Below, piece after piece: positions 5,257-21,450 of a stretch of DNA of 64,000 nucleotides. The stretch is taken from assembly GCA_965207455.1 (NCBI GenBank), contig CBDBMJ010000001.1, forward strand, positions 1,248,001 through 1,312,000. Reading direction: 5' to 3'. The notes beneath the pieces were generated by a model. It saw nothing but the letters and a program-made list of their open reading frames with translations, was not told the DNA's origin and searched no databases. The position numbers and the translations under genes are program-made. Each line of letters opens with the position of its first letter. Within the stretch, counting starts at the first letter, position 1. This DNA comes from Bdellovibrionota bacterium. GTDB taxonomy: Bacteria > Bdellovibrionota > UBA1018 > CAIPTA01 > JAALKR01.

Positions 5257-5604
5257 ATAGTACAAAAATGGTCTTACTTACAGGATCTCCCGAAAAGACT
5301 GTTCACGCTTTCAAAACAAATGACCATTTTTGGGATAAATTAAGGGAGATGAAGCCCAAGTTATTAAGAAACATATTGGGTTGTCGAGTTAAATTCCTTT
5401 CTTTAACTACTGGCACCATGTAGGTTTGCTTTTCACTGTATTTTTTATGCCTCAACTCGAACCATTAGAAAGGTCGACAAAACTGATCTCTCGCATTGCT
5501 ATGCGTTACTATATTGTGATAAATATGAGAATGAAAAAACAATAATCCAATCATGGAGCCAACCTCGCTTGGAGTATCATTTGAGGTGTGCTAAGGTAAA
5601 CAAA

Positions 5605-6111
5605 ATGATGAGAATCCTTATAGTAAGTCTAGTTTTCGTTTTTAGTTCATTAGCCCAGGCAGCTAGCGGCACCTATGTTGTTCCTACCTCTTGTCCTGCA
5701 CTGGATCCATACGCTAGTTTTCCTATTTCCCAAGTGGACGTTTCTCAAGATGAAAACAGTGTAAGCATTACTTATGCTCTTCCGGTAGAACTTACTGGTA
5801 TTGAGCTTCCTGCCATTACATTTAGTGGCACCATTGAGTCCTCAAAAAATCTTGTCCTTAGTAACCCCAACTACGACGCTAGTATTCTCTGCGACACCCC
5901 TATGATTGAGCTTACCAGCAAGTGTGATGTGACATACGGTGATACTTACAAAGATTTTCTAGCCTCTAAAGATAAAGATATCGAGGAAGCAATGGAGCGC
6001 TTAATTGATGACCCACAGCTTTTAAAAATTAGAAAAGCTATCTGGGAGAGTTTTAGTGGCGACCCAATTGGCGTTCTACATTTTGACAACTTAAAAAAAG
6101 AGTCTCAGTAG
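5605..6111 (+). CDS. Hypothetical secreted protein
   Basis: Signal peptide MMRILIVSLVFVFSSLAQA from ATG 5605. The 3' end is duplicated at 7265-7312. Confidence 0.7.
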   Translation: MMRILIVSLVFVFSSLAQAASGTYVVPTSCPALDPYASFPISQVDVSQDENSVSITYALPVELTGIELPAITFSGTIESSKNLVLSNPNYDASILCDTPMIELTSKCDVTYGDTYKDFLASKDKDIEEAMERLIDDPQLLKIRKAIWESFSGDPIGVLHFDNLKKESQ

Positions 6112-6130
6112 CATTAAACTCGAATATAGT
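6064..6130 (+). repeat. 67-bp perfect direct repeat, copy 1 (copy 2 at 7265-7331)
   Basis: ccaattggcgttctacattttgacaac...ctcgaatatagt is identical at both positions. Confidence 0.95.
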
Positions 6131-6310
6131 CTGATTACAGACGCACATTGCCTTTAGGATCTGCTTTAGCGACAGTTTCGGAGTTATTGCATAAATACCC
6201 TGCACTACTCATATTTTTGAGTTGAGAGATTTCAGCTTCCCTCAGGTGACAATATAATGAGGTTTCAGGCAATTATGCAACAACCTGGACAGTTCTCCTA
6301 AATGCATCAA
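6114..6310 (-). pseudogene. Collapsed remnant of the TPR/HTH regulator at 7315-9075
   Basis: Contains the regulator's stop region, an internal piece (6131-6173 matches 8665-8707 at 37/43) and its start region (6293 onward matches 9058 onward). Confidence 0.8.
6180..6287. mobile_element. 108-bp MITE-like element with IS5/IS903-type ends
   Basis: Terminal inverted repeats gttattgcataa / ttatgcaacaac. Flanked by near-identical 9-mers gacagtttc (6171-6179) and gacagttct (6288-6296). No ORF. Confidence 0.6.
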
Positions 6311-6391
6311 ATTGCTTCATTTAAATTAATATAAATAGTCGATTTCCATAATCTACCCAGCGATAAATGTCTTAAGGCAAGAATTTTGCCT
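6293..6391. promoter_or_regulatory. Duplicated divergent-promoter region (paralog of 9058-9156) with palindrome at 6375-6391
   Basis: Gap-free alignment with 85/99 identity. Palindrome aggcaagaattttgcct. Confidence 0.8.
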
Positions 6392-6412
6392 GTACCTGTA
6401 AAAGGAAAAGAG

Positions 6413-7243
6413 ATGATATCAATAGAACATTCCAAAGCAGAAAATTTAAAAGTAGAACATTCAAAATTTAATTTTGAGCATTCTCCTGAACCTATCATTT
6501 CTAAAATCCAATTTGATAAAAAACATATTTTTGTTGTCCGTGATGATCTATTAGAATCTGGAACAAAACAAAGAGCTGCCATTCCCTACATTTCTTCTCT
6601 AGCTCAAGAGGGATATTCACAGTTTGTATACGCCAGCCCTTTCTCAGGCTTTGCTCAAATTGCTCTAGCTTACGCCTGCTCTATTGTAGGCACAAGATGC
6701 GTTCTATTTTGTGAAAAAAGTACCGACGGTGACTTCCATCTATTTTCTAAAATTTCTGAGTCCTATGGTGCAGAAATATGCTTATGTGAAAATTTATCGG
6801 AAGCTCATGAAAGGTCTATTCAGTTTCTTGATTCTCAATCAGAGGGAAAGCTTATTCCTCTAGGTTTTAATGATCCACTTTTTAAATACTACCTTAAAAA
6901 AAACATTCAAAAACATTGGAAAAACTTAACAGTCTCTTACAAAATAAAAGAACTGTGGCTTCCAATTGGTAGCGGGACATTACTTCAGACATTTAAAGAA
7001 TTTATTGATGAGGATGTGAAGATTTATGGAGTCAATGTAAATATTTTAGAGGAGTCAGATCAAAGAATTTTTGATATCAAATCAAACCCTCGATTCCAAT
7101 ATATCAAGTCCTCTGAATCCTTTCACGATGTTGCAAAAGTAATTCCTCCAATCCCTTCAAATTCCTATTATGATGCAAAACTCTTTTCCCTGCTAAAAGC
7201 TCATGCTAAAAATGGGGCTTTTTGGTGGAATGTAGCAAAGTAA
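6413..7243 (+). CDS. Fold-type II PLP-dependent enzyme (ACC deaminase/D-cysteine desulfhydrase-like, divergent)
   Basis: VVRDDLLESGTKQR (Schiff-base Lys), PIGSGTL phosphate loop, YYDAK, WWNVA. RBS aaagga precedes ATG 6413. Confidence 0.7.
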   Translation: MISIEHSKAENLKVEHSKFNFEHSPEPIISKIQFDKKHIFVVRDDLLESGTKQRAAIPYISSLAQEGYSQFVYASPFSGFAQIALAYACSIVGTRCVLFCEKSTDGDFHLFSKISESYGAEICLCENLSEAHERSIQFLDSQSEGKLIPLGFNDPLFKYYLKKNIQKHWKNLTVSYKIKELWLPIGSGTLLQTFKEFIDEDVKIYGVNVNILEESDQRIFDIKSNPRFQYIKSSESFHDVAKVIPPIPSNSYYDAKLFSLLKAHAKNGAFWWNVAK

Positions 7244-7264
7244 AAAACTGAAAGATTGACAAGA

Positions 7265-7331
7265 CCAATTGGCGTTCTACATTTTGACAACTTAAAAAAA
7301 GAGTCTCAGTAGCATTAAACTCGAATATAGT
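7265..7331 (+). repeat. 67-bp perfect direct repeat, copy 2
   Basis: Identical to 6064-6130. Confidence 0.95.
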
Positions 7332-9075
7332 GGACCGACCGTGCCTTTCCCTTCCGAATCAATAGTCCTTCCTCCACTAATTCGCTTAAGTCTCGAGTAA
7401 CCGTAATGCGAGAGACTTCAAACTGTTTTTGATACTCTCTTGGTTTTAAAATCACTCCCCTATTTAGTTGTTCCACCAATTGTAATTGACGATAGTTCAA
7501 ATTGCTTGTCTTGATGGTCTCCAAAGAGCTTGTCAATGAAGAGGCATTTAGTTTTTTAAGAATCACTTTCTCTAGACCATAAACTTTTATATCTGCTTGA
7601 ATTTGTATTCCCTCAAAAACTTGTATTAGGTTGGCAATCCCTGGAGTTCTCTTCTTAATTCTACTCAAAGTATTATAAACTAAGGCATCGTGTTTATAGC
7701 CCACATAACGATAATTCCAAATGTTTTCCACCAATTCCTTCTTGGTTAGATTTCTGCGCTCGAATATAAATTTTAAAATATTATATTGAAATCTTGTTAG
7801 GTGCGGACTGGACCAATAAACATGGTTTTCGTACAAAACTAAAATACAGTTTTTTTTCAAGCCAAATAAAACACAGTTATCTTTAGAAAAAGTAAAGAAA
7901 TTGAGTAAGCCAAGTAGTTGAGATTGATCCAGCTTCAAAATAAATTCTTTTTTCGGAATGCTTTGTCTATCTTCCGACCGTAGAAGCATGTAAATTGGAT
8001 CGGAAACATCTCTTAGATCAACTGATTCATCTTGATAGGAATTGATGACTCGATTTAAAAAATAAGAGCTTTTTGACTCCATTAGCTCTTTTCGCTGCTC
8101 AATCTCATCATCTTTTTGACCCAGTTTTTGTAGGATCGATTTCTCCATACCCAATAGCTTAAGTTCAAGAACATTATCCACACCTTTATGAATAAATTGC
8201 CTTGCTCCCACTAGGCTAAAAAGTGCTTGCTCATAGTTTTTTTGCAAGGACAGCAAGTGTGCTTGCATGATATTTAGTAAAATTGATTGTCGATTATTCT
8301 TCGTTCTATAGATGTTATAAGAGGCTGCCTTAAGGGTTTCTCGCACTTTAGGTAGGTCGCCCATAAAATAATAAGCTTTTGCCAGTTGAAGCTGCGTTTG
8401 AGCCTGTAGATAAAATTCTTTTGTTTTACTTCCCTGTAGAATAGCAAGAGCATTTGGCACATTTTCTTTTAATTCAAAACCAGCCTCTAATTTATAACCA
8501 ATGATGGTGGTGTATATCGCCAAGGCTGTGCCATCGCAGTCTAAACTTTCAGCAAAGTTTTTTGCTTTTTCTAAGAAATCTATGGATTTATGAAAAGCTC
8601 CTGTTTGGTTATAAATATGGCCAATAATATCTATGCAATAAATCCTCTCATAGCTCTGCCCTTCCTGATCACAGACATACATTGCCCTTAGGGCCTGCTT
8701 TAGCGACTTCTCAAAAGAGCCTGTAAAGTAACGATAAAAAGCATGGGCTTGATGGAAGTAAAACAAGTTTCTTTTTATTTTTTTGCTAAGAAAAAAGGAA
8801 TCTTTTATTAGTGATCTTGCTTGGGCATATTGGGATCGCCTCAATAAACTAATAATCCAAAAAAATTGAACCACGATACGCAATTCATCGGACCAGTCTC
8901 TTGCTTGAAGCTGGAGTTCGGCTTCTTCCTCTCGACCCAACATAAAATAGGAGGCAACGGCATAGGCATGGTTATCCGCTATCTTGGGATTTTTCTGCCA
9001 AACCGCTATGGATTGTTCATATTTCCCCTGAAAATACAGTAACTTAGATTCCACTATTTCTCCTAAATGCATCAA
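7315..9075 (-). CDS. TPR-repeat transcriptional regulator with winged-helix and C-terminal DeoR-type HTH
   Basis: Helical TPR-like N-terminus. LTKKELVENIW...VYNTLSRIKK resembles an OmpR-type wHTH. FEVSRITVTRDLSELVEEGLLIRKG resembles a DeoR-type HTH. Confidence 0.75.
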   Translation of the reverse strand: MMHLGEIVESKLLYFQGKYEQSIAVWQKNPKIADNHAYAVASYFMLGREEEAELQLQARDWSDELRIVVQFFWIISLLRRSQYAQARSLIKDSFFLSKKIKRNLFYFHQAHAFYRYFTGSFEKSLKQALRAMYVCDQEGQSYERIYCIDIIGHIYNQTGAFHKSIDFLEKAKNFAESLDCDGTALAIYTTIIGYKLEAGFELKENVPNALAILQGSKTKEFYLQAQTQLQLAKAYYFMGDLPKVRETLKAASYNIYRTKNNRQSILLNIMQAHLLSLQKNYEQALFSLVGARQFIHKGVDNVLELKLLGMEKSILQKLGQKDDEIEQRKELMESKSSYFLNRVINSYQDESVDLRDVSDPIYMLLRSEDRQSIPKKEFILKLDQSQLLGLLNFFTFSKDNCVLFGLKKNCILVLYENHVYWSSPHLTRFQYNILKFIFERRNLTKKELVENIWNYRYVGYKHDALVYNTLSRIKKRTPGIANLIQVFEGIQIQADIKVYGLEKVILKKLNASSLTSSLETIKTSNLNYRQLQLVEQLNRGVILKPREYQKQFEVSRITVTRDLSELVEEGLLIRKGKARSVHYIRV

Positions 9076-9139
9076 ATTGCATCATTTAAGCTAGCATAAA
9101 TAGTCGATTTTTACAACATACCCAGCGATAAATGTTTTA

Positions 9140-9156
9140 GGGCAAAAATTTTGCCC
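9140..9156. promoter_or_regulatory. Palindromic operator candidate between the regulator and the adenylation operon
   Basis: gggcaaaa-a-ttttgccc has perfect 8-bp arms and is conserved in the paralogous promoter. Confidence 0.6.
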
Positions 9157-9176
9157 GTAAGGGAAAGGAGTAGAAA

Positions 9177-10757
9177 ATGTTACTGGAAAAAACACTAAAA
9201 ACGAAAAACCTGTTTTCAGATTTTAAAAAAAGTCCGCTTAAAGGACTAAGTAAGGAAGATCAGCTAAGATTTAAGACCTTTGCCAAAGGAGAGCCGCGTC
9301 AAAGCCCCTACACCTGCATCCATCATGCCTTTGAGGACTATGCCAGGACTCAGCCACATGCAATAGCCATTGAGCACGAAGGTCAATCGATTAGCTATGG
9401 AGAACTAAATGATAGGGCCAATGCTCTTGCTCAATATTTAATTCAAATTGGAGTCCAGCAAGGCGACAACGTTGGATTATTCTTAAACCGTTCTATTGAG
9501 CTTGTGGTTGGTATTCTAGGTGTTCTCAGAACTGGTGCAGCTTATGTACCACAGGACGTGCGCATTGTTCCTGACGTGCAACTTCAATTTATTGCCAAGA
9601 AAGCAAATATTAAAATTATTTTAAGTAAAAAAGAGTTTGCCGATAAATTATCGTTTCATACTAAAACTAAATACTTAGATGAATTGGATTATACGAATAA
9701 CAAAGAACACGTATTTATCTTACAAGGCAAGCAAACTAACTGCTTTATTCTCTTCACTTCAGGAACTACTGGTATGCCCAATGGTGTGCGAATTACCCAT
9801 GGGAATGTCTGCAATATTTTACTGAGTGCTCCTGGAAATTTAGGAATGCGCCCTGGATTGAAGGTTGCACAAATTCTCAATATATCTTTTGATATGTCTG
9901 CTTGGGAAATTTTAGGTGCACTATCTAATGGGGCTAGTTTAATAATCCGCGGGAACTCTATTCAAGAAACTGTGGAAAAAGCAGATATTGTTATTGCCAC
10001 TCCAAGTATATTGGCTAGCTTAGATAGTAAAACTTGCCGACAAGTAAAAACCGTTGCTGTGGCTGGAGAACCTTGCCCCAAACAATTAGCTGATGAGTGG
10101 TCAACATTTTCGCAGTTTTATAACTGTTGTGGTCCAACGGAAACAACCATTGTCAATACCATGCATAATTACAAAGGTTCAAAACAACCCATTTCCATTG
10201 GTAGACCAACACCCAATAATACAGTTTACATTTTAGATAAAAATCTAAAGCCACTACCAATTGGTGAAATTGGAGAAATGTGGGCTGGTGGTGACTGTGT
10301 TAGTGCTGGCTACATCGGCAACAATAGACTCAACTTTGAGCGCTATAAGCCAGATCCATTTTTAGGTAATGGTCGAAAAATGTTCCGAACGCGTGATTTT
10401 GGTCGCTGGAATAAAAATGGTGAGTTAGAGCATTTTGGCAGAACAGATGATCAAGTAAAAATTAGAGGATTTCGTATAGAACTAGATTCTGTTTCAACTG
10501 CACTAGAGTCTATAAAATCTTGCCACCAAGCAGTTACACTTAAGCTTGATGACCGAAAATTAGTTGCTTTCATTCGCCCCAGCACAGTAAACATTGAAGA
10601 AGCTAAAATAGCTGTAGAAACAAAGCTTTCCTACTACTGCTTGCCTTCACTTATCATTCCAATGGATGCATTTCCTAAAACCGACAGAGGAAAAATCAAT
10701 AAAAGAGAGTTAACTGTCCTAGCCGCTCAAAAACAAGAGGAGGCAAAAAATGCTTAG
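9177..10757 (+). CDS. Stand-alone NRPS-type amino-acid adenylation domain protein (no PCP or C domain)
   Basis: SYGELN, GAAYVP, FTSGTTGMPNG, SFDMS, AGE, GPTETT, GEIGEM, GRTDDQVKIRGFRIEL, GKI. The protein ends right after the A10 motif. Confidence 0.9.
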   Translation: MLLEKTLKTKNLFSDFKKSPLKGLSKEDQLRFKTFAKGEPRQSPYTCIHHAFEDYARTQPHAIAIEHEGQSISYGELNDRANALAQYLIQIGVQQGDNVGLFLNRSIELVVGILGVLRTGAAYVPQDVRIVPDVQLQFIAKKANIKIILSKKEFADKLSFHTKTKYLDELDYTNNKEHVFILQGKQTNCFILFTSGTTGMPNGVRITHGNVCNILLSAPGNLGMRPGLKVAQILNISFDMSAWEILGALSNGASLIIRGNSIQETVEKADIVIATPSILASLDSKTCRQVKTVAVAGEPCPKQLADEWSTFSQFYNCCGPTETTIVNTMHNYKGSKQPISIGRPTPNNTVYILDKNLKPLPIGEIGEMWAGGDCVSAGYIGNNRLNFERYKPDPFLGNGRKMFRTRDFGRWNKNGELEHFGRTDDQVKIRGFRIELDSVSTALESIKSCHQAVTLKLDDRKLVAFIRPSTVNIEEAKIAVETKLSYYCLPSLIIPMDAFPKTDRGKINKRELTVLAAQKQEEAKNA

Positions 10758-12114
10758 TCAAACCATCACATCAACGATAAAAAATACAAACGCTGTGGAG
10801 CTTGTGAATCAGGAAAGCTCCGCCCTACCTCCAAAGAAATCATTCCTATATAGGCTCAGTAAGGATCCTCTATGCATGCCCTACAACCGTCTAGCTATAT
10901 TTATTTTTGCTGCCAATGCTATAATTTTTACCACACTAGCAAGCACTTTTTCATTTTCTGGGCATGGCATAACGATAGATACGATTCTAAAACTTTGTCT
11001 GGCTAATTTCAGCATTGCTATTTTAATCCGACAGCAATATGTGGTTAATTTACTTTTTAAAGTAGCAACAAGCGCTCCACTGACTTGGCCCCTTAGTATT
11101 CGATGGGCTTTAGCTAAGGTGTATCACTTTGGTGGTATTCATGTAGGTGCTTACTTCTCAGGCAGTCTGTGGTTTGCTCTTTTCACATTAGCTTGTCAAA
11201 ATAGCACCGGCCATTGGGCTAATGTAAAGCTAATGTCTATTTTTCACTTAGCAATACTACTTGGCATAATGTGCGTATCCTTGCCAGCCTTTCGTCAGCG
11301 TCACCATAACCAGTTTGAAGTAATTGCTCGCTTTGGTAACTGGACTTCTTTAGCGTTGTTTTGGGCACAAACCATTCTCATTATTAAAATGAATAGCCAA
11401 GGTTCTTTGGCACTGGCACTGTTAGAGTCACCTTATATTTGGATTTTAAGTTTACTTACCTTCAGTGTAGCTCTACCTTGGTTGCGATTAAAAAAGGTAA
11501 ATATCGACTTATCAACTCCTTCCAATCATGTGGCATTAACTAGCTTTAATCATGGAGTCACACCCTTTGCTGGCTCATCCACTGAACTAAGTGTAAACCC
11601 ACTTTTTGAGTGGCATTCGTTTGCGAATATCAATACTCCTAACAAAGAAGGGTTTCGTTTAGCTATTTCACGTGCAGGTGACTGGACTGGTCGACTCATC
11701 GATAAAAAGCCAAAAAATATTTGGGTGAAAGGAATTCCAACCGCTGGTGTGGGCAATGTGGAGCTTTTATTCAAAAAAGTTATTTGGCTTGCCACAGGAA
11801 GTGGTCTAGGACCTTGTTTGCCCCATATCTTAGCCAACAATGTTCCTTCACAACTGGTTTGGTCCACTCGAACACCTCGTAAAACTTATGGCGATACCCT
11901 TGTTAATGAAATTTTAGCAGTACAAAAAGATGCAATTATTTGGGACACCACCGAGAAAGGAAAACCAAATTTAGTAGAACTGGCCTACAAAGCTTATCGA
12001 GACAGTGGTGCAGAAGCTATCATTTGTATTTCTAACAAAAGAACAACTTGGAATATGAAAAAAGAGCTGGAAGGCAGAGGAATCCCAGTATTGGGAGCAA
12101 TTTGGGATTCATAA
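10750..12114 (+). CDS. Ferric-reductase/NOX-like membrane protein (about 6 TM plus FAD/NAD(P)-binding domain), TmpL-like
   Basis: TM helices, then EWHSFA (FAD motif), AGDWT and ATGSGLGP (NAD(P) motif). Overlaps the upstream gene by 8 bp. Confidence 0.75.
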   Translation: MLSQTITSTIKNTNAVELVNQESSALPPKKSFLYRLSKDPLCMPYNRLAIFIFAANAIIFTTLASTFSFSGHGITIDTILKLCLANFSIAILIRQQYVVNLLFKVATSAPLTWPLSIRWALAKVYHFGGIHVGAYFSGSLWFALFTLACQNSTGHWANVKLMSIFHLAILLGIMCVSLPAFRQRHHNQFEVIARFGNWTSLALFWAQTILIIKMNSQGSLALALLESPYIWILSLLTFSVALPWLRLKKVNIDLSTPSNHVALTSFNHGVTPFAGSSTELSVNPLFEWHSFANINTPNKEGFRLAISRAGDWTGRLIDKKPKNIWVKGIPTAGVGNVELLFKKVIWLATGSGLGPCLPHILANNVPSQLVWSTRTPRKTYGDTLVNEILAVQKDAIIWDTTEKGKPNLVELAYKAYRDSGAEAIICISNKRTTWNMKKELEGRGIPVLGAIWDS

Positions 12115-12129
12115 AATAAGGAGAAAATT

Positions 12130-12909
12130 ATGAAATTGAATACATTAATTTTAGAAGAAAAAAAGAATATTATAAAAATTACGATCAATCGAGAGGCCAA
12201 GCTAAATGCTCTATCACAAGAAGTATTTGCTGAATTGGATCAAGTCTTAAAGGATACGGCAAAAAAACCATACCTTAAGGGGCTCATAATTACGGGAGCA
12301 GGTGAGAAAGCATTTGTGGCAGGGGCAGATATTAGTGAAATGGCTCAAATGAATCCAGAAGAAGGTGAGGCGTATGCAGCTAAAGCACAAGCTGTTACAG
12401 AGTTTATTGAGAACCTTCCCTTTCCCGTTGTTGCCTGTGTAAATGGTTATGCCCTTGGTGGTGGATGTGAGTTAGCCATGGCTTGCGACACAATCTATGC
12501 CAGCGAAAATGCTATTTTCGGTCAACCAGAGGTAAAGCTTGGACTTATTCCAGGCTTTGGTGGCTGTGTCCGCTTAATTCGCTATGTGGGTTTAGCAAAA
12601 GCCAAGGAACTCATTTATTCCGGCAAAAGCATTAGTGCTAAAGAGGCAAGCACGCTTGGCCTCGTGAGCAGGGTTTTCACAAATAAACAGCAGATGCTTA
12701 GCGAAGCAGAGTGCTTTTTAGAAAATACAGCAAAAAATTCCATGCAAGCTATTTCTCAATGCAAACAAGTTATAAACAGTACATTTGGCTGTTCCACGGC
12801 TGAAGCTTTAGAGATAGAAAGAAAAAAATTTCGTAAAGTTTTTGCTACAGAAGATAAACTGGAGGGTATAGATGCCTTTTTAAATAAACGAAGTGCAAAC
12901 TTCCATTAA
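12130..12909 (+). CDS. Enoyl-CoA hydratase (crotonase family)
   Basis: AFVAGADI, NGYALGGGCELA, FGQPEVKLGLIPGFGG. RBS aaggag. Confidence 0.93.
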   Translation: MKLNTLILEEKKNIIKITINREAKLNALSQEVFAELDQVLKDTAKKPYLKGLIITGAGEKAFVAGADISEMAQMNPEEGEAYAAKAQAVTEFIENLPFPVVACVNGYALGGGCELAMACDTIYASENAIFGQPEVKLGLIPGFGGCVRLIRYVGLAKAKELIYSGKSISAKEASTLGLVSRVFTNKQQMLSEAECFLENTAKNSMQAISQCKQVINSTFGCSTAEALEIERKKFRKVFATEDKLEGIDAFLNKRSANFH

Positions 12910-13141
12910 GTAAGAGTCAATAAATTTCTAACTCAAAAACCACAAATCATTGTGGCTGGTGAACTGCGGAATTTTATCATCGAAACTACTGTATTTTTGT
13001 TCAATTATTGATGATAAAATCACAATAATAATTTTTTTCTTTGAAAAATAATTGACTCTAATAAATTTTCATTTATAGTTGAAAAAAGATGCATGGTGTA
13101 TCTCTTAAATAAAATAACAAAAAAATAAAAAGGAAAATATT

Positions 13142-13660
13142 ATGAAAAACATGAAAACTATATTAATGGCAGCGAGCTTAACCGTGGCTCTATTCTAAAA
13201 TCCCGCTCTAGCACGTGATAAGGAAAGGTATCTAGACTTTAAATGTCCCTCTGTGAGTTCACCTGAAGACTATAGAATCTCAATAAAGTTGTACTATAAT
13301 GACTCAAAACCTCGAGAGGGGTTGCCCATCTCAGCATAAAAGACTATTTCGATCGTCGCAGGTTTAGTCGTTGTGATATTATCTGATCAAATGAGGATCC
13401 AAATTTTAAAAACAAAGGTGAGCGCTATATTCTTCCTGTTGTTATGCACTGTAAGAGAAATCCCGAGGGACTCTATGATGAAGGAATGTTTAATTTAGAT
13501 TTAACGAAGGGTGCAAGAAGCGCATCAGTAAATATACCAGATCCAACAGCCCATAATACATTTGATCATTATCTTTATTACTGGAGGTCAACCCGGCGGT
13601 AAATGGGTTAGAAGCAGAACAAAAATTCATAATTGCAAAGCAACATTGTGGCAAGAATAA
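13142..13660 (+). pseudogene. Degraded secreted-protein gene
   Basis: RBS, then MKNMKTILMAASLTVALF*NPALA, a signal peptide broken by TAA at 13196. Further stops and frameshifts follow, then a terminator. Confidence 0.55.
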
Positions 13661-13830: not shown

Positions 13831-14388
13831 TTAGTTCCCATTTGCGCAGTCTCTCCCCAAAATGCTAGTTACACCGTCAGAACAAGTGAGTGCAAAATTA
13901 ACATAAATATTATCAAATATGCCGTCAGAAGTCCTCAAAGCGGAAACATCCCAACCAGATAAATTGAGAGACTCTAAACTCGAAGCATGAGAAAACATTG
14001 AACTCATATTTATTACACTAGAGGTAACAAAATTAGACAGGTCAAGAGACTCTAAACTCGAAACATAAAAAAACATTGATCTCATACTCATTACAGTAGA
14101 GGTAACAAAATTAGACAGGTCAAGAGATTCTAAACTCGAAGCATGAGAAAACATATGCTGCATATCTTTTACACTAGAGGTAACAAAATTAGACAGATCA
14201 AGAGACTCTAAACTCGAAACATGAGAAAACATATATTGCATATTCGTTACACTAGAGGTAACAAAATTAGACAGGTCAAGAGACTCTAAACTCGAAGAAT
14301 AAGAAAACATATACTGCATACTCGTTACACTAGAGGTAACAAAATTAGACAGATCAAGAGACTCTAAACTCGAAGTATAAGAAAACAT
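13831..14388 (-). pseudogene. 5'-truncated DUF285/BspA-type LRR repeat protein (C-terminal fragment)
   Basis: Five full plus one terminal 26-aa repeats (MFSxxSSLESLDLSNFVTSSVxxMxx). Cys-containing C-cap like those of the genes at 48290 and 51625. Begins mid-repeat with no signal peptide or RBS. Confidence 0.8.
13960..14388 (-). repeat. 78-bp coding tandem repeat (about 5.5 units)
   Basis: Recurring blocks gagactctaaactcgaa and gaggtaacaaaattagacag with a 78-nt period. Confidence 0.9.
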
Positions 14389-14396
14389 TAGCGAAA

Positions 14397-14744
14397 ATGA
14401 ATCATATGGTTATCTATACTGCGATGATAGAAGAAACAAGAAAGTTTTGGGACTCTGTTTTATTATGTGAGAATGAATCAAGTAAAATGAAGCATCTCCA
14501 TTATGAGGTTGGACCTTTTATAGTAATGTTTAACGAAAACAAGGAGGCAGAACGAAATCTACTAAATGTAATTGGACATATAGGTTTTGAATTTGAGAAT
14601 AGGAGCCATATTGACTCTGAATTTGAAAGAATTTGAATAAAAAAACCTATTGGGGGCGTGAAACAGGATCCCTACCGATTTTATATCGACGACCCAAATG
14701 GAATTAAAATTGAATTTGAAACATGGGAAGGATGTTTAGAGTAA
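14397..14744 (+). pseudogene. VOC/glyoxalase-family gene interrupted by one in-frame TGA (14634-14636)
   Basis: MNHMVIY...GHIGFEF...I*IKKP...YRFYIDDPNGIKIEF in a single frame (116 codons). Confidence 0.75.
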
Positions 14745-14910
14745 CTGTTAAATCGAGGAAGAATTTTCATCAACGTCGGCCGGTTCGAGAGCCTGTAAGT
14801 TATTTTGTGTAACTGCGGTTTTAGCACCAAATCAACTCTCATCGTCAATGAAAAGTTAATTCAACTGCCGCTTCTATTTTTTTCCAGCAGCATTAACTGC
14901 TAGAAAATTA

Positions 14911-14939
14911 TTTATATCAAATCCATCTCTCCGTGTCAA
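14911..14939 (-). promoter_or_regulatory. Outward-facing sigma70-type promoter inside the IS 3' tail
   Basis: TTGACA-N17-TATAAA on the minus strand. Confidence 0.65.
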
Positions 14940-15107
14940 TCATGAAATTAAAAAAAATGTAAAATCTTAACGGGTAATAGCTTTCACTAAGTGAGTTTTA
15001 AGCAAAAACCATACAACCCCCTGGAACCCAAGGGGTAGTTTTTAGATAGCGAAGACTAGCTAAATAATTTATATTTTACTTCAAGCGAAAGGTTACTCTC
15101 TTTTGCC

Positions 15108-16310
15108 TCAGAGATCGAACCTGCCTTCATATTCAATTGCAAATCGGTTCATTGCTAAAGGCCAATTATGCAATGGCATTGTCCATTTACGAGATGCCTG
15201 TTGTGTTGCTAAATAAATTAACTTTAAAGCAGACCCATCGTTTGGAAATATTTTTCTATTCCTAATGCTCTTACGGATAACACTGTTTAAAGACTCTATC
15301 GCATTCGTTGTATAGATAACTTTTCTGATCTCATAGGGATAATCAAAAATAGAAATTAAATTTTCCCAATTATTCCTCCAAGAACGCTCTATCTGAGGAT
15401 ATTTATCCGACCATTTTTTCCCAAATGCATCTAGCGCTGTCTGGGCAGCTTCCAGTGTTGGAGCACCGTAAATTGCTTTTAGATCCTTAGCTACTGCCTT
15501 CTTATCTTTTGAGGGCACATATCGAAAAGAATTACGCATCATATGGACGATACATAACTGTATCTTAGCCTTAGGAAATGCCGTTGTAATTGCTTCCGGA
15601 AAACCAGTTAGACCGTCTACACAAACAATAAAAATATCCTTAACTCCTCGGTTCTGCAAATCTGTTAAAACACTTAACCAAAATTTAGCTCCTTCTTCAC
15701 CTGCAATCCAAAGACCAAGGAGTTCCTTGTGTCCCGACTGTGTAACTCCCAATGCAAGATAGACCGATTTATTTCTTACACGACCACTCTCATGAACTTT
15801 CACGACTATACAATCAAGGTATAGTATGGGGTATACCTTATCTAGGGAGCGACTCTGCCATTCCTTAACGGTATCTATAACTGCATCTGTGACATTAGAG
15901 ATAACCGTATGGGATATTTCTGCCCCACCATAGAGTTCCTTAATTGTTTCCTGAACATCTCGTGTGGTCATACCTCGGCTATACAGAGCCAGTATAGTGT
16001 CCTCAAAGCCCTCTAAGCGAGTTTTCCCTTTTGGGATAACTTTAGGCTCAAATGAGGCGTCTCTGTCTCTAGGAGTGCTCAAATCAAGCTCACCCTTATC
16101 ACATTTTATCGTTTTTGAGCTGTAACCATTGCGAGTATTCTTTCTTCGATTACCCAATTTATCATTTCTCTCATAGCCCAGGTGATCATCTAACTCTGCA
16201 TTGAGCGCAGATTCAAAAATCGTCTTTGTTAGCTGACCCATGATCCCTGAAATATCTTTTTGTGTTTTTACACCCCTGGCAAGTTCTTTGCCTATCGCAT
16301 CAATATCCAT
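15108..16310 (-). CDS. IS256-family DDE transposase
   Basis: RNGY, PRDR..F.P, LYSRGMTTRD, YLDCI, VDGLTGF, QLCIVH, YTTNAIESLN. Probable start ATG 16310 with RBS aaggag. Confidence 0.96.
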   Translation of the reverse strand: MDIDAIGKELARGVKTQKDISGIMGQLTKTIFESALNAELDDHLGYERNDKLGNRRKNTRNGYSSKTIKCDKGELDLSTPRDRDASFEPKVIPKGKTRLEGFEDTILALYSRGMTTRDVQETIKELYGGAEISHTVISNVTDAVIDTVKEWQSRSLDKVYPILYLDCIVVKVHESGRVRNKSVYLALGVTQSGHKELLGLWIAGEEGAKFWLSVLTDLQNRGVKDIFIVCVDGLTGFPEAITTAFPKAKIQLCIVHMMRNSFRYVPSKDKKAVAKDLKAIYGAPTLEAAQTALDAFGKKWSDKYPQIERSWRNNWENLISIFDYPYEIRKVIYTTNAIESLNSVIRKSIRNRKIFPNDGSALKLIYLATQQASRKWTMPLHNWPLAMNRFAIEYEGRFDL

Positions 16311-16406
16311 AACTACTTTCTCCTTCTGATGATTCATCATACCATTTGATGATTCCACCATATTATAAGTTAAGCAGTTACACAATTTACTTTACAGGCT
16401 CATTTT

Positions 16407-17189
16407 TTATTTACAAATCTCTTTTAAAATTATGTTTTCATTTTTCTGAATCTTTTTTATTTCAAGATATCTTTTACATTCCTTAGAGCTTGCCGGGTCT
16501 TTTTTACTCCATAAGCCAATAATTTTTTTATTCTTTTCAGTAATAATTCCATATTTTGGGTAAGTGGTATCCATATAAAGATAAATTCTAGCAATATCTC
16601 CTCGAATTTCATTTCTTGGCTCTACTATCTTTTTAGATTTATCAATTTCAATATCGCAGTTCCCAAAATTTCTAGCCTCTCCATTAATTTCTGATATATC
16701 GTAATTGCTTCTTATAGCATTGACTTGACCGATGGAAGGAACAAGATTATAAAGATCTGCCTCCATAAGCTGAAAAGTTGTATTAACTTTACTTAGGCAT
16801 TTCCTTCCTTTATAAGTTTCTTTTCGTTTTTTTCTCGCACATTTCTCATGACCATTTGTCCATTCTATAAAATTCTTTCCAAAAACAGAGGCTGGAACAA
16901 TATGCTCCCATTCTATTCTATTTGCCCTATTTTTGTACTTTTTATGAATTTTATAACCACATATAGTAAAATCTACTTTCCCATTTAAAGAATACTCACA
17001 AGAGCAATAAAAGGTTTCTCTCCCTAGAATTTTATAAATTTCTTTTAATCTTGTCTTTGCAGAACCAAAATTTTTTACTGTTTTATTTTTTTCAGGAATT
17101 ATATTTTTAATAATCTTTGATTTTTTCTCTATAAAAGAAGAACAAGCACTTAATGATAAGAGTAAGAAAATTATGATTATTTTACTCAA
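16407..17189 (-). CDS. Endonuclease I (EndA/Dns family), lipoprotein signal
   Basis: FYCSC, IEWEHIVPAS, MEADLYNLVPSIGQVNAIRSN, RGDIARIYLYM. Lipobox LSAC. Confidence 0.9.
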   Translation of the reverse strand: MSKIIIIFLLLSLSACSSFIEKKSKIIKNIIPEKNKTVKNFGSAKTRLKEIYKILGRETFYCSCEYSLNGKVDFTICGYKIHKKYKNRANRIEWEHIVPASVFGKNFIEWTNGHEKCARKKRKETYKGRKCLSKVNTTFQLMEADLYNLVPSIGQVNAIRSNYDISEINGEARNFGNCDIEIDKSKKIVEPRNEIRGDIARIYLYMDTTYPKYGIITEKNKKIIGLWSKKDPASSKECKRYLEIKKIQKNENIILKEICK

Positions 17190-17494
17190 AGAGAACCCTT
17201 CAATATTATTTTTTTAAATTAAATTCACTTAATTAATTTAACACGATTCTTATTAAACTGTGTAAAAAAATAGAATCATCTTTAATAAAAATGACTCTAT
17301 TAACGTGTAATTTCATAAGACCTATAAATTATCGTTATTGACAGAAAGAGATTAAAGAAAGAACCGTACCTTTATTACACGATATAATTAATAAAGTTAA
17401 ATTTCAAAGAAGGAGAGATATTAAAAATGCTTAAAATATTTATAAATAAAATATTTTTGTTAATATTTTTAATATATTTGCCGAAGTTAATTTT

Positions 17495-18697
17495 ATGACA
17501 AATTTATATGTAAAAGGAATATTTTTAATACTAATCACCGCTATCAATATGTTTTTTGTGTTTGAAGCGAAATCTAAAAATAAAACTCATAAAATAAAAA
17601 ATGCAGCTCCATCTTATGAAATTAAGAATGGAAAATGTCGTGCCCCACATAAATGTTCCTATGATATTCTCATTGGGACTAAATATTCCAAAAAAGATCT
17701 GACTGCTATAGCTTATGAATTAAAATCATTATCACCAGTAGTTAAGCGTATTTTTATAACATATTACCTTCCATGTATGGAGATTGGTGCAGGCGCATGG
17801 GCTACTAGTCATTTTTTACCTGAACTTTCTGTTAATACTTATGATGCTGTTCTTGAGCTTTTGGCAAAATGTGCAAAATTCCATAAAAAGAAGAGAAACA
17901 AACCAATAAAAACTAAAAATACTAAAAAAATAAATGTAAAAATTGACTTAAAGTCAGAATTTAAAAATGGGAAATTATATATAAAAGGAAAAACAAATCT
18001 ACCTGATAAAACTCGATTGCTTATCAGCTTGTCAAAAAAGAAATGTGACCATCATTATTTCTTAATTGATGCGAATGTTCAAAATAGAATTTTTGAAGGA
18101 GTCATATATAACGATAAGAATGAGGAAAAATCATTACCAAATGGAAAATATATAATAAAGATTGAAAGCTCATTAATTGAACTTATGGATAAATCAGTAC
18201 AAAAAACTTTAGGAATTTATGGTGAAAATATGACAGGAAAATTAATTTCTAAATGGAGTATAGGAGGCAGTAATAAGGTTAAATTCGTATCAAGATATGT
18301 TATAACTAATTCTTTTGATGTAAAAAGCGATTCTTTATTATTAAAAAAACAATTAAAAATTTTTAAAAACCATTATAATAAATTAAAAAAATTATGCTGC
18401 GGAAGATCTAGTTTGGACGCTACCGGCTTAGATTGGAGCGTAAAGGGCGTGGAATGGAATAGGGAAAGAGAGAGATTAATAGCTGATTTTTATAAAAAAT
18501 TTGGACGAACTTTAAATGAGTATGATGGTGTGTGCACAAGAGCTAAGCTAAACTCAAGTGCCTTTAGTCATTATATTTTCACTCTTTATCAACACATGTA
18601 TAGTAAAAGAGCAAAACATATAAAACAGTGGAAAAAAAATATAAAAGAAATTATTCTTGAAATTGAATCAGATCTAAAATCGTGCAGTAAATGTTAA
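17495..18697 (+). CDS. Hypothetical secreted, basic, Cys-rich multidomain protein
   Basis: N-terminal signal or TM segment, 400 aa, in the AT-rich island. Confidence 0.7.
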   Translation: MTNLYVKGIFLILITAINMFFVFEAKSKNKTHKIKNAAPSYEIKNGKCRAPHKCSYDILIGTKYSKKDLTAIAYELKSLSPVVKRIFITYYLPCMEIGAGAWATSHFLPELSVNTYDAVLELLAKCAKFHKKKRNKPIKTKNTKKINVKIDLKSEFKNGKLYIKGKTNLPDKTRLLISLSKKKCDHHYFLIDANVQNRIFEGVIYNDKNEEKSLPNGKYIIKIESSLIELMDKSVQKTLGIYGENMTGKLISKWSIGGSNKVKFVSRYVITNSFDVKSDSLLLKKQLKIFKNHYNKLKKLCCGRSSLDATGLDWSVKGVEWNRERERLIADFYKKFGRTLNEYDGVCTRAKLNSSAFSHYIFTLYQHMYSKRAKHIKQWKKNIKEIILEIESDLKSCSKC

Positions 18698-18731
18698 AAG
18701 ATAATTTTAATTAATTACGAAAGGAGAAAAT

Positions 18732-19022
18732 ATGGATAAAGAAAAAATAATGAGAATACCTCTCACAAAAAAATCTAGCGATTCATTGAAAACTATGCTA
18801 GAATCCCTAAATAAAAATATTAAAGCAAAGATAAAAAAGACAAATTTCTTGTCTTGGATCATTTTAGATTATCAAAATAAATATTTTTCAAAAAATATGA
18901 AAAAAATTCAAAGTGAGCTTCAAGACCCTATAGATTATGCCAAAGCGATACTAGAAGATCTGCAAAAATCTAAGAAGAAAGTAACTTTAAGTGAAATATC
19001 AACTATGCTTAAAAAATCATAG
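18732..19022 (+). CDS. Hypothetical small basic protein (possibly DNA-binding)
   Basis: RBS aaggag; 96 aa, Lys-rich. Confidence 0.6.
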   Translation: MDKEKIMRIPLTKKSSDSLKTMLESLNKNIKAKIKKTNFLSWIILDYQNKYFSKNMKKIQSELQDPIDYAKAILEDLQKSKKKVTLSEISTMLKKS

Positions 19023-19025
19023 ACC

Positions 19026-19244
19026 CTACAGTTCTTTTATAATTTCTGACATTTCCATATCTAAGGCTATTGCTACATTTTTAAGGGTAGTAAAACAAAT
19101 GTCTTGCCCAGACTCAATCCGTTGCCAATGCTTCCAGCACGGGAAGTTGAGCTTCGGCAAGGATATTTCCCTTTCTTGTCGCAGCGCTCTAATTCTTTTC
19201 CCTAGTTTTTTCTTTAACATTTTTTTCTGATGAGGCGTTTGCAT
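19026..19244 (-). CDS. XRE-family HTH regulator
   Basis: LGKRIRALRQEREIS...WQRIESGQDICFTTLKNVAIALD. Confidence 0.8.
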   Translation of the reverse strand: MQTPHQKKMLKKKLGKRIRALRQEREISLPKLNFPCWKHWQRIESGQDICFTTLKNVAIALDMEMSEIIKEL

Positions 19245-19323
19245 GATTTTCCCCTTGCTATCAAGGTTACCGTTAGATATATGTAGGCAATACCGTTAGT
19301 TAACGGTAGATTGTTTTGATAAA

Positions 19324-19737
19324 ATGGGAATAAATAGCGACAAACATAAAAAAACACCTTTGATCATAGCAAGGCTAATATTTGCTCAAAAGCTGGTTCA
19401 AATTAGGCGCAAGGCAAATTTATCTTTTTTTAAAGCAGCAAAACTTGCCAAAATAAGCCCAATTGTGCTTTTTCATTATGAATGGGGATTTAAAGACCCT
19501 CCAGGCTACATTATTAGCCGTTTACTCGGAAAGATTTATAATGCAAGTGAGGAAGACATTTTTTATTTCTGTTCTTTTCTGAGAACGTCGATGCTAAAAG
19601 AATTGAACGACAAGAGGCTGTGGAGATATTTATCTCTAATAGCACAAAAATTAAGCTATACTCCAAACCCTAAAAAATCCGAAAACAAAACAAACAACAT
19701 GCGTATGTTTTCTATTGATACCTCTATAAACAAATAA
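19324..19737 (+). CDS. XRE-family HTH protein
   Basis: FAQKLVQIRRKANLS..KAAKLAKIS....HYEWG..DPP. Divergent from the XRE gene at 19026-19244. Confidence 0.65.
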   Translation: MGINSDKHKKTPLIIARLIFAQKLVQIRRKANLSFFKAAKLAKISPIVLFHYEWGFKDPPGYIISRLLGKIYNASEEDIFYFCSFLRTSMLKELNDKRLWRYLSLIAQKLSYTPNPKKSENKTNNMRMFSIDTSINK

Positions 19738-19813
19738 TTATCACCTCTTAAAAACCTAAAAAAAACACCTTATATTTCAACTGTATAGACAAACATACGC
19801 CTCTTCTTATGAG

Positions 19814-20083
19814 GTGATTATGAAAGATATTGACTTGATTAATGAGTGTAATTCTGATAAAACTGTTAATACTACAGGTTCTACGAAAGATAGGACTTTG
19901 TTCTTTGAAAATTTGATAACGATAGATGAATTAGCGGCTGAATTGGGTATAGCCCCTAAGACGATTAGAAATTGGGTTGCGTTAAGAAAAATCCCATTTA
20001 TAAGACTGGGAAGACGCACCTTATTCCGTCAAGGAAGTTTGAAGGAATGGCTAGATCGAAAGGAGATCAAACCATGTCTGTGA
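19814..20083 (+). CDS. Excisionase-like helix-turn-helix protein
   Basis: LITIDELAAELGIAPKTIRNW....IPFIRLGRRTLF. Overlaps the integrase start. Confidence 0.85.
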   Translation: MIMKDIDLINECNSDKTVNTTGSTKDRTLFFENLITIDELAAELGIAPKTIRNWVALRKIPFIRLGRRTLFRQGSLKEWLDRKEIKPCL

Positions 20084-21282
20084 TAAATATAAAAAGAAAA
20101 AATAAAAATAAGTATCGAGCTGAGGTCTATGTGAGGGGAGTAAAGTTAGGTTGTCAAACCTTTTCTTCTAAAACCCTTGCATGGCAATGGCATGATGCTG
20201 AAAAAGAACGGCTAGAAAACCCCAAAAAAGCGAAAAAGAAAGAAATACAGGAAATGACTTTTAAAGAAGTTATTAAGCGATTTAAAAAAGAAAGGATACC
20301 TTATTTAAAAAGCTCCACGGCTGCAAACTATGAACAGTTATACAAATATTTACTTGAAGATAAGAAAACTTCAAATATAAAAATGTGTGACTTTGATTCA
20401 GAGGTAGTGGACGAGTGGCTAAGCTGGTTGTTGAAACACAAAACAGTTAAAAATAAGGGAAGAAAATCTTTTAATTTAGAGCTTAAACGCCTGTCGGCTA
20501 TTCTTAATTGGTATAAAAACTATATAAGTGCGGACTTTAATGTGCCTGTTGTAAAAAGGCATAGAGAACGATGCTTTTATAAACCTATAAAGTCACGTCG
20601 CCCCGACTACTACATAAACCCAGAGGACATAAGGAACTGGCTTAAAGAGCTAGAAAAGTGCTATACGCCGATATACTGGCATGTAGCTCAATTTATGACT
20701 CTCACAGGTGCTAGAGTAGGCGAGGCTTGCGGACTGAAATGGAGTGAGATCGATCTGGAACGAAAGACCGCCAGAATTATAAGGATAGTGAGTTGGCATA
20801 AGAAAAACAAAAAACCCTATGTTGTAGAATCCACTAAGACTGAGGAATCTGTGAGAATGTTGATATTGCCTCAAATTTTAGTCGATTTACTTTGGGAAAT
20901 AAAAACAACCCAAGGGAATGGAGAGGAGTTTGTTTTCTTAAGTCCAAAGGGCAGTCTTTTAAAGTACAATGCTATTCAGAACGCCTTTAATAGGGCATTT
21001 AAGAGGCTGGGGCTTCCGTGGAGGTCAACCCATATCTGTCGCCATACATTCGCTACGATAGCACTTATGGCAACCAGAGACCTATCTGCGGTGCAAGCTG
21101 CTCTTGGGCATACAGATATAAAGATCACCCAAAGGTATGCCAAGGCGGTAGCACTATTAAGTTCTGATACAGCAGAGAAAACAGCAGCAATGTTTAACCT
21201 TGATGAAAATAAAACTAAAAAGGATCGTTCTTTTAAAAATCAGAATATTTTCAGCAAAAGAAAACTTAGCATTGTTAGGTAG
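20074..21282 (+). CDS. Tyrosine recombinase/integrase
   Basis: TGARVGE, STKT, HICRH, LGH and TQRY catalytic residues. RBS aaggag precedes ATG 20074. Confidence 0.95.
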   Translation: MSVINIKRKNKNKYRAEVYVRGVKLGCQTFSSKTLAWQWHDAEKERLENPKKAKKKEIQEMTFKEVIKRFKKERIPYLKSSTAANYEQLYKYLLEDKKTSNIKMCDFDSEVVDEWLSWLLKHKTVKNKGRKSFNLELKRLSAILNWYKNYISADFNVPVVKRHRERCFYKPIKSRRPDYYINPEDIRNWLKELEKCYTPIYWHVAQFMTLTGARVGEACGLKWSEIDLERKTARIIRIVSWHKKNKKPYVVESTKTEESVRMLILPQILVDLLWEIKTTQGNGEEFVFLSPKGSLLKYNAIQNAFNRAFKRLGLPWRSTHICRHTFATIALMATRDLSAVQAALGHTDIKITQRYAKAVALLSSDTAEKTAAMFNLDENKTKKDRSFKNQNIFSKRKLSIVR

Positions 21283-21302
21283 TTACAGCGTTTTTTTAAA
21301 AA

Positions 21303-21399: not shown

Positions 21400-21450
21400 C
21401 GTGTAATTGGAAAAAAATAAGTTAGTAATTTCAGTAGTTTGTGCACTTTT

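What the first reader, a model, noticed from the sequence alone, without database searches (positions are those of the whole stretch)
9177..12909. Carrier-less adenylation domain + NOX/ferric-reductase-like membrane protein + crotonase: split bacterial TmpL/NPS12-like system
Seen: a three-gene operon (8-bp overlap, then a 15-bp gap) under a dedicated divergent regulator. The NRPS-type A domain has no PCP, C or TE domain, and no carrier or PPTase gene is present in the window. Its coupled partner has about 6 TM plus FAD (WHSF, GDWT) and NAD(P) (TGSGLGP) motifs. Known: fungal TmpL (Alternaria, Aspergillus) and NPS12-type proteins fuse an AMP-binding domain, TM segments and an FAD/NAD(P) domain, and TmpL is linked to redox homeostasis and virulence; I know of no resolved chemistry for them. 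Inference: a tractable bacterial two-protein version that couples adenylation to membrane redox chemistry, with a crotonase and the co-promoted PLP enzyme as possible substrate-supplying steps. This is the best candidate for an undescribed system here.
Basis: partly seen in the sequence, partly recalled or inferred. Interest (0 to 1): 0.82.

Follow-up and report, generated by a model that had tools for sequence, protein, structure and literature searches.

The report
Heme-stripped bacterial TmpL-type enzyme trio
Three linked genes (an amino-acid-activating enzyme with no carrier, a membrane flavoprotein shaped like an NADPH oxidase, and a hydratase) are the bacterial split form of a fungal enzyme whose chemistry is unknown, and this copy belongs to a branch that has lost most of the residues that hold heme, which makes it a natural test of how the family works.

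Summary
Observation confirmed. The three genes are a split bacterial homologue of fungal NPS12/TmpL/TmpB (42% identity in both halves to a Mycena NPS12; Pfam 03009_C). The crotonase is a core part: it follows in 63 of 70 related loci that have the A domain and in 0 of 15 that lack it, and was recruited twice from unrelated hydratase lineages. The host genome has no condensation domain and only the fatty-acid ACP. The membrane protein has the NOX fold but keeps one of four heme histidines. The whole family lacks the outer pair. A Bdellovibrionota branch that includes this copy has also lost the TM5 inner ligand kept by TmpL and TmpA, filled the pocket with Phe/Tyr, and in some members lost the last histidine, while the amino-acid pocket is unchanged. 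Best reading (0.45): aminoacyl-AMP to aminoacyl-CoA, an NADPH/FAD redox step on the cytoplasmic face, then (de)hydration. The product is unknown. The PLP gene shares a duplicated promoter here but is not conserved; the regulator is not dedicated. The scan reported this cassette before on other DNA; the notes shown did not mention the inner-ligand loss.

The parts
9177..10757 (+). Stand-alone NRPS-type adenylation enzyme of the NPS12 clade, no T, C or TE domain; specificity code DMWIAACIVK; A5 motif NxCGPTE with Cys in place of the usual Tyr
   Evidence: positions read against GrsA numbering from recall and the alignments
10750..12114 (+). TmpA/TmpL-type membrane flavoprotein (PF26733, 03009_C): six helices plus FNR-type FAD/NAD(P)H domain, NOX fold; keeps His131 only of four heme histidines (Phe145, Ala193, Ala206/Gln207); branch signature Tyr135, His166, Asn197, Glu279
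12130..12909 (+). Enoyl-CoA hydratase (Crt-like lineage) with both catalytic glutamates (Glu114, Glu134); core third gene
9058..9159 (+). 5' end of the regulator plus the divergent promoter region; palindrome at 9140-9156 (candidate operator, inferred)
7315..9075 (-). TPR plus winged-helix regulator of a family widespread in this phylum; local controller here, not part of the conserved unit
6413..7243 (+). Fold-type-II PLP enzyme (PALP; ORF opens at TTG 6386, ATG 6413 is the likelier start); sits behind a second copy of the promoter; not conserved with the trio
6293..6394 (+). Second copy (86%) of the regulator 5' end and promoter
6064..6173 (.). Left copy of a 67-nt direct repeat (6064-6130, identical to 7265-7331) followed by a 43-nt remnant of a second regulator copy; marks the 1201-bp PLP cassette as an insertion
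   Evidence: repeat at about twice the flanking depth
5569..6111 (+). Small protein of no Pfam family that is the regulator's usual neighbour (5 of 11 regulator loci examined)

Best explanation
A carrier-free three-enzyme pathway on the cytoplasmic face of the membrane that turns one small aliphatic amino acid into a small metabolite. Step 1 (shown by sequence): the A enzyme forms an aminoacyl-adenylate. Step 2 (inferred): with no carrier protein, coenzyme A takes the acyl group. Step 3 (fold and motifs shown, reaction inferred): the membrane flavoprotein uses NADPH and FAD for a redox step on the activated species; electrons do not cross the membrane, and in this branch they probably do not pass through heme at all (about 0.7 for loss of heme). 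Step 4 (inferred): the hydratase adds or removes water at the alpha-beta bond of the CoA thioester. The likeliest product class is a dehydro- or beta-hydroxy amino-acid derivative used as a diffusible signal or defence compound, by analogy with the fungal phenotypes. Family identity is near certain (0.97); the full mechanism is not.
For: Hydratase directly downstream in 63 of 70 loci with the A gene (3 of the 7 misses have one convergent and adjacent) and 0 of 15 without it. Operon hydratases form two clades drawn from different housekeeping lineages; one clade is rejected at p-AU 4e-8 (22 operon rows against 12 others; NCBIfam best hits differ). Both catalytic glutamates in 71 of 71. Crotonases of this type act on CoA thioesters (established knowledge). 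One PP-binding and one ACPS match, both beside fatty-acid or housekeeping genes, and no condensation domain in the genome; no carrier among 60 flanking ORFs scanned; linker of a natural fusion is one helix. [quoted passage not shown] Fungal TmpA works with a 4-coumarate-ligase-like enzyme (PMC4804170), and a Streptomyces copy without the A gene has another AMP-binding enzyme nearby. NOX fold, Z 23.6 over 366 residues to SpNOX. Outer-heme histidines not conserved. Position 193 is His in 82 of 82 distant homologues but not in 62 of 207 close ones; those 62 all have Phe/Tyr at 135, 56 have His166, 59 have Asp/Glu279, and 5 lack His131 against 0 of 145. The specificity code is the same in both groups and in two of five fungal proteins.
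Against: No enzyme of the family has a known product, and no assay was run. The A9 region reads YYC-P, without the basic residue I recall from dedicated acyl-CoA ligases. FNR-type flavins normally hand on single electrons, so the chemistry of step 3 is open. His131 is kept in 57 of 62, which also fits a five-coordinate heme. 4 of 70 A-containing loci have no adjacent hydratase. Loci are related and partly duplicated, so the counts overstate independence; the A-less lineages may stem from one to three losses. Of 10 phylum genomes with the membrane gene, one has in-frame stops and one is truncated.
Confidence: 0.45

Rival explanations
1. Direct reductase: the A enzyme hands the aminoacyl-adenylate (or a thioester) to the membrane protein, which reduces it with NADPH to an amino aldehyde or alcohol. 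The hydratase only supplies or clears a side metabolite.
For: The Pfam name 03009_C comes from a Coprinopsis protein called an adenylate-forming reductase (PMC6461984 uses the term). The two halves are fused in 87 longer hits and 5 of 73 loci and overlap by 8 bp here.
Against: Does not explain why a hydratase was recruited twice and is lost with the A gene. Known adenylate reductases use a thiolation domain and a Rossmann reductase (established knowledge), both absent.
Confidence: 0.2
2. The A enzyme loads a carrier in trans, most likely the fatty-acid ACP, and the other two enzymes act on the aminoacyl-ACP.
For: One ACP and one AcpS exist in the genome. Bushley and Turgeon proposed transfer to another NRPS for such stand-alone A domains (PMC2823734). 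The genome is 94.7% complete, so a carrier could be missing from the assembly.
Against: No condensation domain in the host, no carrier near related loci, and the partner hydratases fall among CoA-dependent housekeeping enzymes.
Confidence: 0.13
3. Redox or ROS device: the membrane protein oxidises NADPH and reduces oxygen or quinone for redox control, with the A enzyme as sensor or effector source.
For: NOX fold. TmpL mutants show altered ROS handling (PMC2766074, passages). A fusion of the domain to a cyclic-nucleotide-binding domain exists.
Against: No outer-heme site in the family and no complete inner site here. [quoted passage not shown] No role for the hydratase.
Confidence: 0.12
4. This branch is decaying: loss of the histidine reflects relaxed selection on a cassette that no longer works.
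For: Longer branches in the clade; one relative with two in-frame stops and one truncated; slightly lower within-group identity (membrane part 0.49 against 0.52, flavin part 0.71 against 0.75).
Against: All three frames are intact here. His126, His186, Glu190 and Arg194 stay in 61-62 of 62, and new residues are fixed (Phe/Tyr135 in 62, His166 in 56, Ser200 in 58, Phe448 in 57). The trio persists in several families of the phylum.
Confidence: 0.1

Closest known systems
Fungal ChNPS12 / TmpL (Alternaria brassicicola, Aspergillus fumigatus) / TmpB (A. nidulans AN9129); Coprinopsis CC1G_03009 and CC1G_06235 (Pfam PF26733, 03009_C)
   Same: NPS12-type A domain without T or C, six helices, FAD/NAD(P) domain; 42% identity in each half to Mycena crocata NPS12; shared motifs with TmpL and TmpA in Figure S2 of PMC2766074; an enoyl-CoA hydratase gene is reported beside tmpB (PMC4804170).
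   Different: Two proteins instead of one; bacterial; lacks the TM5 inner-heme histidine that TmpL and TmpA both keep; uses a Crt-like hydratase.
A. nidulans TmpA with AfeA
   Same: Stand-alone membrane flavoprotein of the same family working with a separately encoded adenylating enzyme.
   Different: AfeA is 4-coumarate-ligase-like and, by the paper, has very low similarity to the TmpB A domain; here the partner is the NRPS-type A enzyme.
NADPH oxidase / ferric reductase family (SpNOX 8QT6, NOX2, DUOX1)
   Same: Six-helix plus FNR fold (Z 23.6, rmsd 4.7, 366 aligned); profile match to DUOX1 and NOX2 at E 3e-5 and 5e-5; C-terminal aromatic residue.
   Different: One of four heme histidines; no route for electrons across the membrane; tied to adenylation and hydration.
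Stand-alone A domains with carriers in trans (DltA, VibE, MxcE type)
   Same: Free-standing adenylation enzyme; DltA accepts CoA in vitro (PMC4176424).
   Different: No carrier protein or NRPS in the locus, in the flanks of relatives or, apart from the fatty-acid ACP, in the genome.

Membership tests
NPS12/TmpL/TmpB (03009_C) | NPS12-clade amino-acid adenylation domain | tested here: met
   TIGR01733 over cut-off; 42% over 510 aa to Mycena NPS12, E 3e-134; identical specificity code
NPS12/TmpL/TmpB (03009_C) | No thiolation or condensation domain | tested here: met
NPS12/TmpL/TmpB (03009_C) | TmpA-type domain: six helices plus FAD/NAD(P) motifs, PF26733 | tested here: met
NPS12/TmpL/TmpB (03009_C) | A domain and membrane domain in one polypeptide | tested here: not met
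   Two ORFs in different frames, letters confirmed by a contig; fused bacterial forms exist. Filed as split homologue, not as TmpL itself
NPS12/TmpL/TmpB (03009_C) | Both inner-heme histidines as in TmpL and TmpA | tested here: not met
   Ala193 here; His in TmpL and TmpA and in 82 of 82 distant homologues
NPS12/TmpL/TmpB (03009_C) | Bound flavin (shown for the TmpL C-terminal part) | not testable with these tools
   Motifs present; needs a spectrum
NOX / ferric reductase | Six-helix domain joined to an FNR-type domain | tested here: met
NOX / ferric reductase | Four heme-ligating histidines in TM3 and TM5 (SpNOX H69/H129 inner, H83/H142 outer) | tested here: not met
   Mapped through a four-histidine bacterial homologue, NOX2/DUOX1 and PMC11564096: His131, Phe145, Ala193, Ala206/Gln207
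NOX / ferric reductase | Transmembrane electron transfer to oxygen or metal | not testable with these tools
   Needs an assay; unlikely without the outer site
Modular NRPS | Carrier and condensation domains in cis or trans | tested here: not met
   genome 94.7% complete
Ordinary acyl-CoA ligase | Scores over an acyl-CoA ligase model; no amino-group aspartate | tested here: not met
   All acyl-CoA ligase models shown score far under cut-off; Asp239 invariant
Enoyl-CoA hydratase (crotonase) | Oxyanion motif and two catalytic glutamates | tested here: met
   AGADI, Glu114, Glu134; 71 of 71 operon copies; residue roles from established knowledge
Enoyl-CoA hydratase (crotonase) | Member of a named NCBIfam equivalog | tested here: inconclusive
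   Best PRK05809 278.8 bits, cut-off 394

The most novel reading that the evidence does not exclude
A carrier-free, CoA-based amino-acid pathway shared by bacteria and fungi, in which a NOX-fold membrane enzyme that has given up heme performs NADPH-driven chemistry on an aminoacyl-CoA at a His/Glu site beside the flavin (His126, His186, Glu190, and His166 in this branch), and a crotonase finishes a dehydro- or beta-hydroxy amino-acid signal. That would be a heme-free catalytic use of the NOX scaffold and would explain TmpL/TmpB.
Probability: 0.3. Interest if true: 0.85.

Novelty: new variant of a known kind. Interest (0 to 1): 0.63.

Why it matters
[quoted passage not shown] A compact bacterial cassette gives a soluble A enzyme, a separate membrane enzyme and the likely third step, so substrate, acceptor and product can each be tested. 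The branch seen here adds a natural experiment: same amino-acid pocket and same hydratase partner type, but the heme ligands removed step by step. If it makes the same product as His-bearing copies, heme is not the catalyst of the family, and the NOX fold has a use other than moving electrons across membranes.

Tried and rejected
Complex prediction of A enzyme with membrane protein: no verdict, score 0.00; it says nothing either way. Fold of a natural fusion (958 aa): pLDDT 90.5, pTM 0.60; two good halves, no usable statement on docking. Sequencing runs: no RNA holder listed. Viral contigs: no relative of the membrane protein or of the PLP enzyme. Promoter and terminator scan of 6100-13300 at chance level (22 against 20.9; 8 against 6.2). 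Rfam: only the tRNA. Pfam copy lacks PF26733, hence 0 hits for the membrane protein. No conserved fourth gene among 105 loci beyond regulators and synteny of close kin. PLP enzyme as pathway step: rejected. I first judged it not co-promoted, and corrected this. Equal contig lengths for a membrane-gene homologue and a PLP homologue (P0004 and P0464, 7713 bases) were seen by eye and not tested; two other such matches had different sources. Built-in cysteine carrier: Cys356 is 53 of 82 in distant homologues and the A5 cysteine sits at the adenine-stacking position by recall, so not favoured. Labels 'ECHc' for L033, L035 and L046 in the tree came from an identity threshold on partial genes and are unreliable; L033 falls in the other clade. 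mis-scored L026 (wrong strand); one search is the corrected count. The hydratase tree is the quick tree; the careful search did not finish. Brandenburger et al. (PMID 27457378) is not held. Searches for a paper on the bacterial cassette or its chemistry found none; subscription journals are mostly outside that library.
Full report
Observation. The three ORFs, the 8-bp overlap, the 15-bp gap and the divergent gene are as described. The A enzyme passes the amino-acid adenylation model and nothing else. The membrane protein gives a confident model with six long helices and an FNR-type domain. The third protein is a crotonase. The genome (2.38 Mb, 94.7% complete) has one PP-binding match, inside a fatty-acid gene cluster, one AcpS-sized ACPS match and no condensation domain. 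A contig of a public run covers 7302-13200 without a difference; the run may be the assembly's source.

Family. Both halves match one fungal protein named NPS12 (Mycena crocata, KAJ7109738.1): 42% over 510 residues and 42% over 418. All 120 listed near-length hits carry PF26733, which names 03009_C, with neighbouring clusters called TmpA family. The TmpL and TmpA sequences printed in Figure S2 of PMC2766074 show the same motifs (compared by eye). Fused forms exist in bacteria too: 87 longer hits, 86 of them with both domains listed, named ones mostly Aquimarina. In a model of one fusion the linker is a single helix, so no carrier domain hides there. PMC2823734 already placed stand-alone bacterial A domains (Hahella, Salinispora) in the ChNPS12 clade but did not describe partners in the passages I read. 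PMC4804170 notes an enoyl-CoA hydratase gene beside tmpB in several Aspergilli.

Conserved unit. I examined 105 loci: 24 from genomes, 1 from a relative and the best 80 of 448 metagenome hits; some are duplicates and all are related, so counts overstate independence. The A gene lies directly upstream in 71 of 89 loci with room, split in 68 and fused in 5 of the 73 that have it. A hydratase follows on the same strand in 63 of 70 loci with the A gene; 3 of the 7 misses have one adjacent on the other strand; 0 of 15 loci without the A gene have one. In 401 genomes of the host's phylum, 10 have the membrane gene and 9 the A gene, the same genomes and adjacent. So the cassette is patchy: 2 of 61 nearest genomes. 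The operon hydratases are two clades nested among different housekeeping enzymes, and their union is rejected (p-AU 4e-8; 22 of the operon sequences against 12 unlinked ones, quick tree). A generic CoA-thioester hydratase was therefore recruited at least twice. No carrier protein turned up among 60 chosen flanking ORFs of the 24 genome loci or by motif.

The membrane enzyme. It has the NOX fold (Foldseek E 8e-12 and Z 23.6 to SpNOX). SpNOX binds its inner heme with H69 and H129 and its outer heme with H83 and H142 (PMC11564096). Mapping through a four-histidine bacterial homologue (profile probability 54%, E 1e-4) and through NOX2 and DUOX1 for TM5 puts these at His131, Ala193, Phe145 and Ala206/Gln207. 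The outer pair is not conserved anywhere in the family, so transmembrane electron transfer is unlikely. Position 193 is His in TmpL, TmpA and 82 of 82 distant homologues, but not in 62 of 207 close ones (the query, 119 stand-alone hits and 87 longer hits). In a tree of 118 sequences the window's protein sits in a 12-row clade (support 99) whose named members are all Bdellovibrionota and which all lack His193; three also lack His131. All 8 other full-length phylum copies lack it too (five of them are loci already counted). Among the 62, all have Phe or Tyr at 135, one turn from His131, where His-bearing copies have Ala, Thr, Asn or Ser; 56 have a new His166; 59 have Asp or Glu at 279; 5 have lost His131 (Asn, Gln, Ala, Pro) against 0 of 145. 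Two genomes show a halfway state, Ala193 with Ala135 and Gly197 kept. A separate pair of loci has Lys193. My reading is that the inner pocket was emptied and then filled (about 0.7); a five-coordinate heme is the alternative. His186 and Glu190 are invariant and align with SpNOX Y122 and R126, which contact FAD (PMC11031084), so they lie beside the flavin. Arg or Lys at 374 in 48 of 48 close homologues suggests NADPH, by recall of FNR-family 2'-phosphate binding.

The A enzyme. Its code is DMWIAACIVK; 23 copies of the His-less group and 128 others share DMWIAA(S/C/A/G)I(V/I)K with minor variants, as do two of five fungal proteins. The substrate class has thus not changed with the heme site. The aspartate points to an alpha-amino acid and the pocket to a small aliphatic one. 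I recall that the Coprinopsis homologues activate L-Ala, L-Val and L-Ser in vitro (Brandenburger et al., PMID 27457378), but the paper is not held and I saw only its reference entry.

Mechanism. Shown: an adenylating enzyme without carrier, a flavin/NAD(P)H enzyme without a path across the membrane, and an intact CoA hydratase that comes and goes with the A gene. Inferred: CoA is the acceptor (such side activity is known, PMC4176424), the flavoprotein changes the redox state of the thioester or a product of it, and the hydratase moves water at the alpha-beta bond. I give this 0.45, direct reduction 0.2, a carrier in trans 0.13, a redox device 0.12 and decay 0.1. Against my reading: no product is known, single-electron flavin chemistry on such a substrate has no clear precedent that I can name, His131 is mostly kept, and 2 of 10 phylum copies are broken.

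Local setting. The regulator belongs to a family found in 66 of 401 phylum genomes and is unlinked from the trio in the two others that have both; its usual neighbour is the gene at 5569-6111 (5 of 11 loci). Four related genome loci use a divergent LysR gene instead. The PLP gene lies in a 1201-bp unit bounded by a 67-nt direct repeat, behind remnants of a second regulator copy and an 86% copy of the promoter; a third partial promoter copy lies elsewhere in the genome. Co-regulation here is plausible, but neither gene occurs in the 105 loci, and the PLP gene was found in 1 of 9 genomes of the branch, at 27% identity on another contig.

Papers seen: PMC2766074 (passages, supplement list, Figure S2 text); PMC4804170 (first 10,000 characters, passages, supplement search without hits; its Figure S10 is not among the files held); PMC2823734 (passages, section 21); PMC6461984, PMC11031084, PMC11564096, PMC12403569, PMC4176424, PMC10282164 (passages). 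Searches found no paper on the bacterial cassette, its product or the histidine loss; most subscription journals are not covered.

Verdict. A real, conserved system of a known but biochemically unsolved family. The scan has reported the cassette before in other genomes. What this copy adds is the branch without a complete heme site and evidence that the hydratase was recruited twice. New variant of a known kind; interest 0.63.

Noticed in passing
window 6064-7331: The PLP gene sits in a 1201-bp insertion flanked by a 67-nt perfect direct repeat and carries remnants of a deleted second regulator copy; part of the remnant (about 6180-6285) matches several other places in the genome.
   Followed up: partly
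G000:C1:204605-204674: Third partial copy (83% over 70 nt) of the promoter region, upstream of a 360-codon frame that looks exported; may mark a small regulon or another lost regulator copy.
   Followed up: partly
G000:C1:1020868-1024718: 24-residue remnant of a PLP-gene paralogue next to a LysR gene that is divergent from a cupin plus aminoacyl-tRNA-synthetase-like frame and an FAD oxidoreductase (my reading of the translations); possible natural-product cluster.
   Followed up: no
window 6413-7243: The PLP enzyme belongs to a family of 799 hits whose named members are mostly Bdellovibrionota and matches phrog_7093 (E 1.5e-12); function unknown.
   Followed up: partly
window 7315-9075 and 5569-6111; loci L147-L157: TPR plus winged-helix regulator and a small unannotated protein form a recurring pair in this phylum, with changing divergent cargo genes.
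   Followed up: partly
L119:5893-8644 and L120:5875-8590: Distant cyanobacterial plasmid homologues of the membrane gene (28%) lack the A gene and are followed by an HlyD-type membrane-fusion gene.
   Followed up: partly
protein P0211 and its cluster: The membrane domain fused to an N-terminal cyclic-nucleotide-binding domain (46-member cluster).
   Followed up: no
L013:2099-9284: A Streptomyces copy without the NPS12-type A gene lies downstream of a cyclopropane-synthase-like gene, another AMP-binding enzyme and a nitroreductase.
   Followed up: no
L136 (G004:C9) and L135 (G228:C13): One relative has two in-frame stops in the membrane gene; another keeps only its 3' part and the hydratase beside a LysR gene and a transposase-like frame.
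   Followed up: partly
window 13831-14466: DUF285/leucine-rich-repeat gene made of six 78-nt units.
   Followed up: no
window 14789-16401: Insertion sequence with 28-nt terminal inverted repeats around a 425-aa transposase-like frame (IS256 type by recall).
   Followed up: no
window 16407-21537: Low-GC block (about 0.29) with an endonuclease-like gene and an integrase-like gene ending next to tRNA-Leu(CAA); probable integrated element.
   Followed up: no
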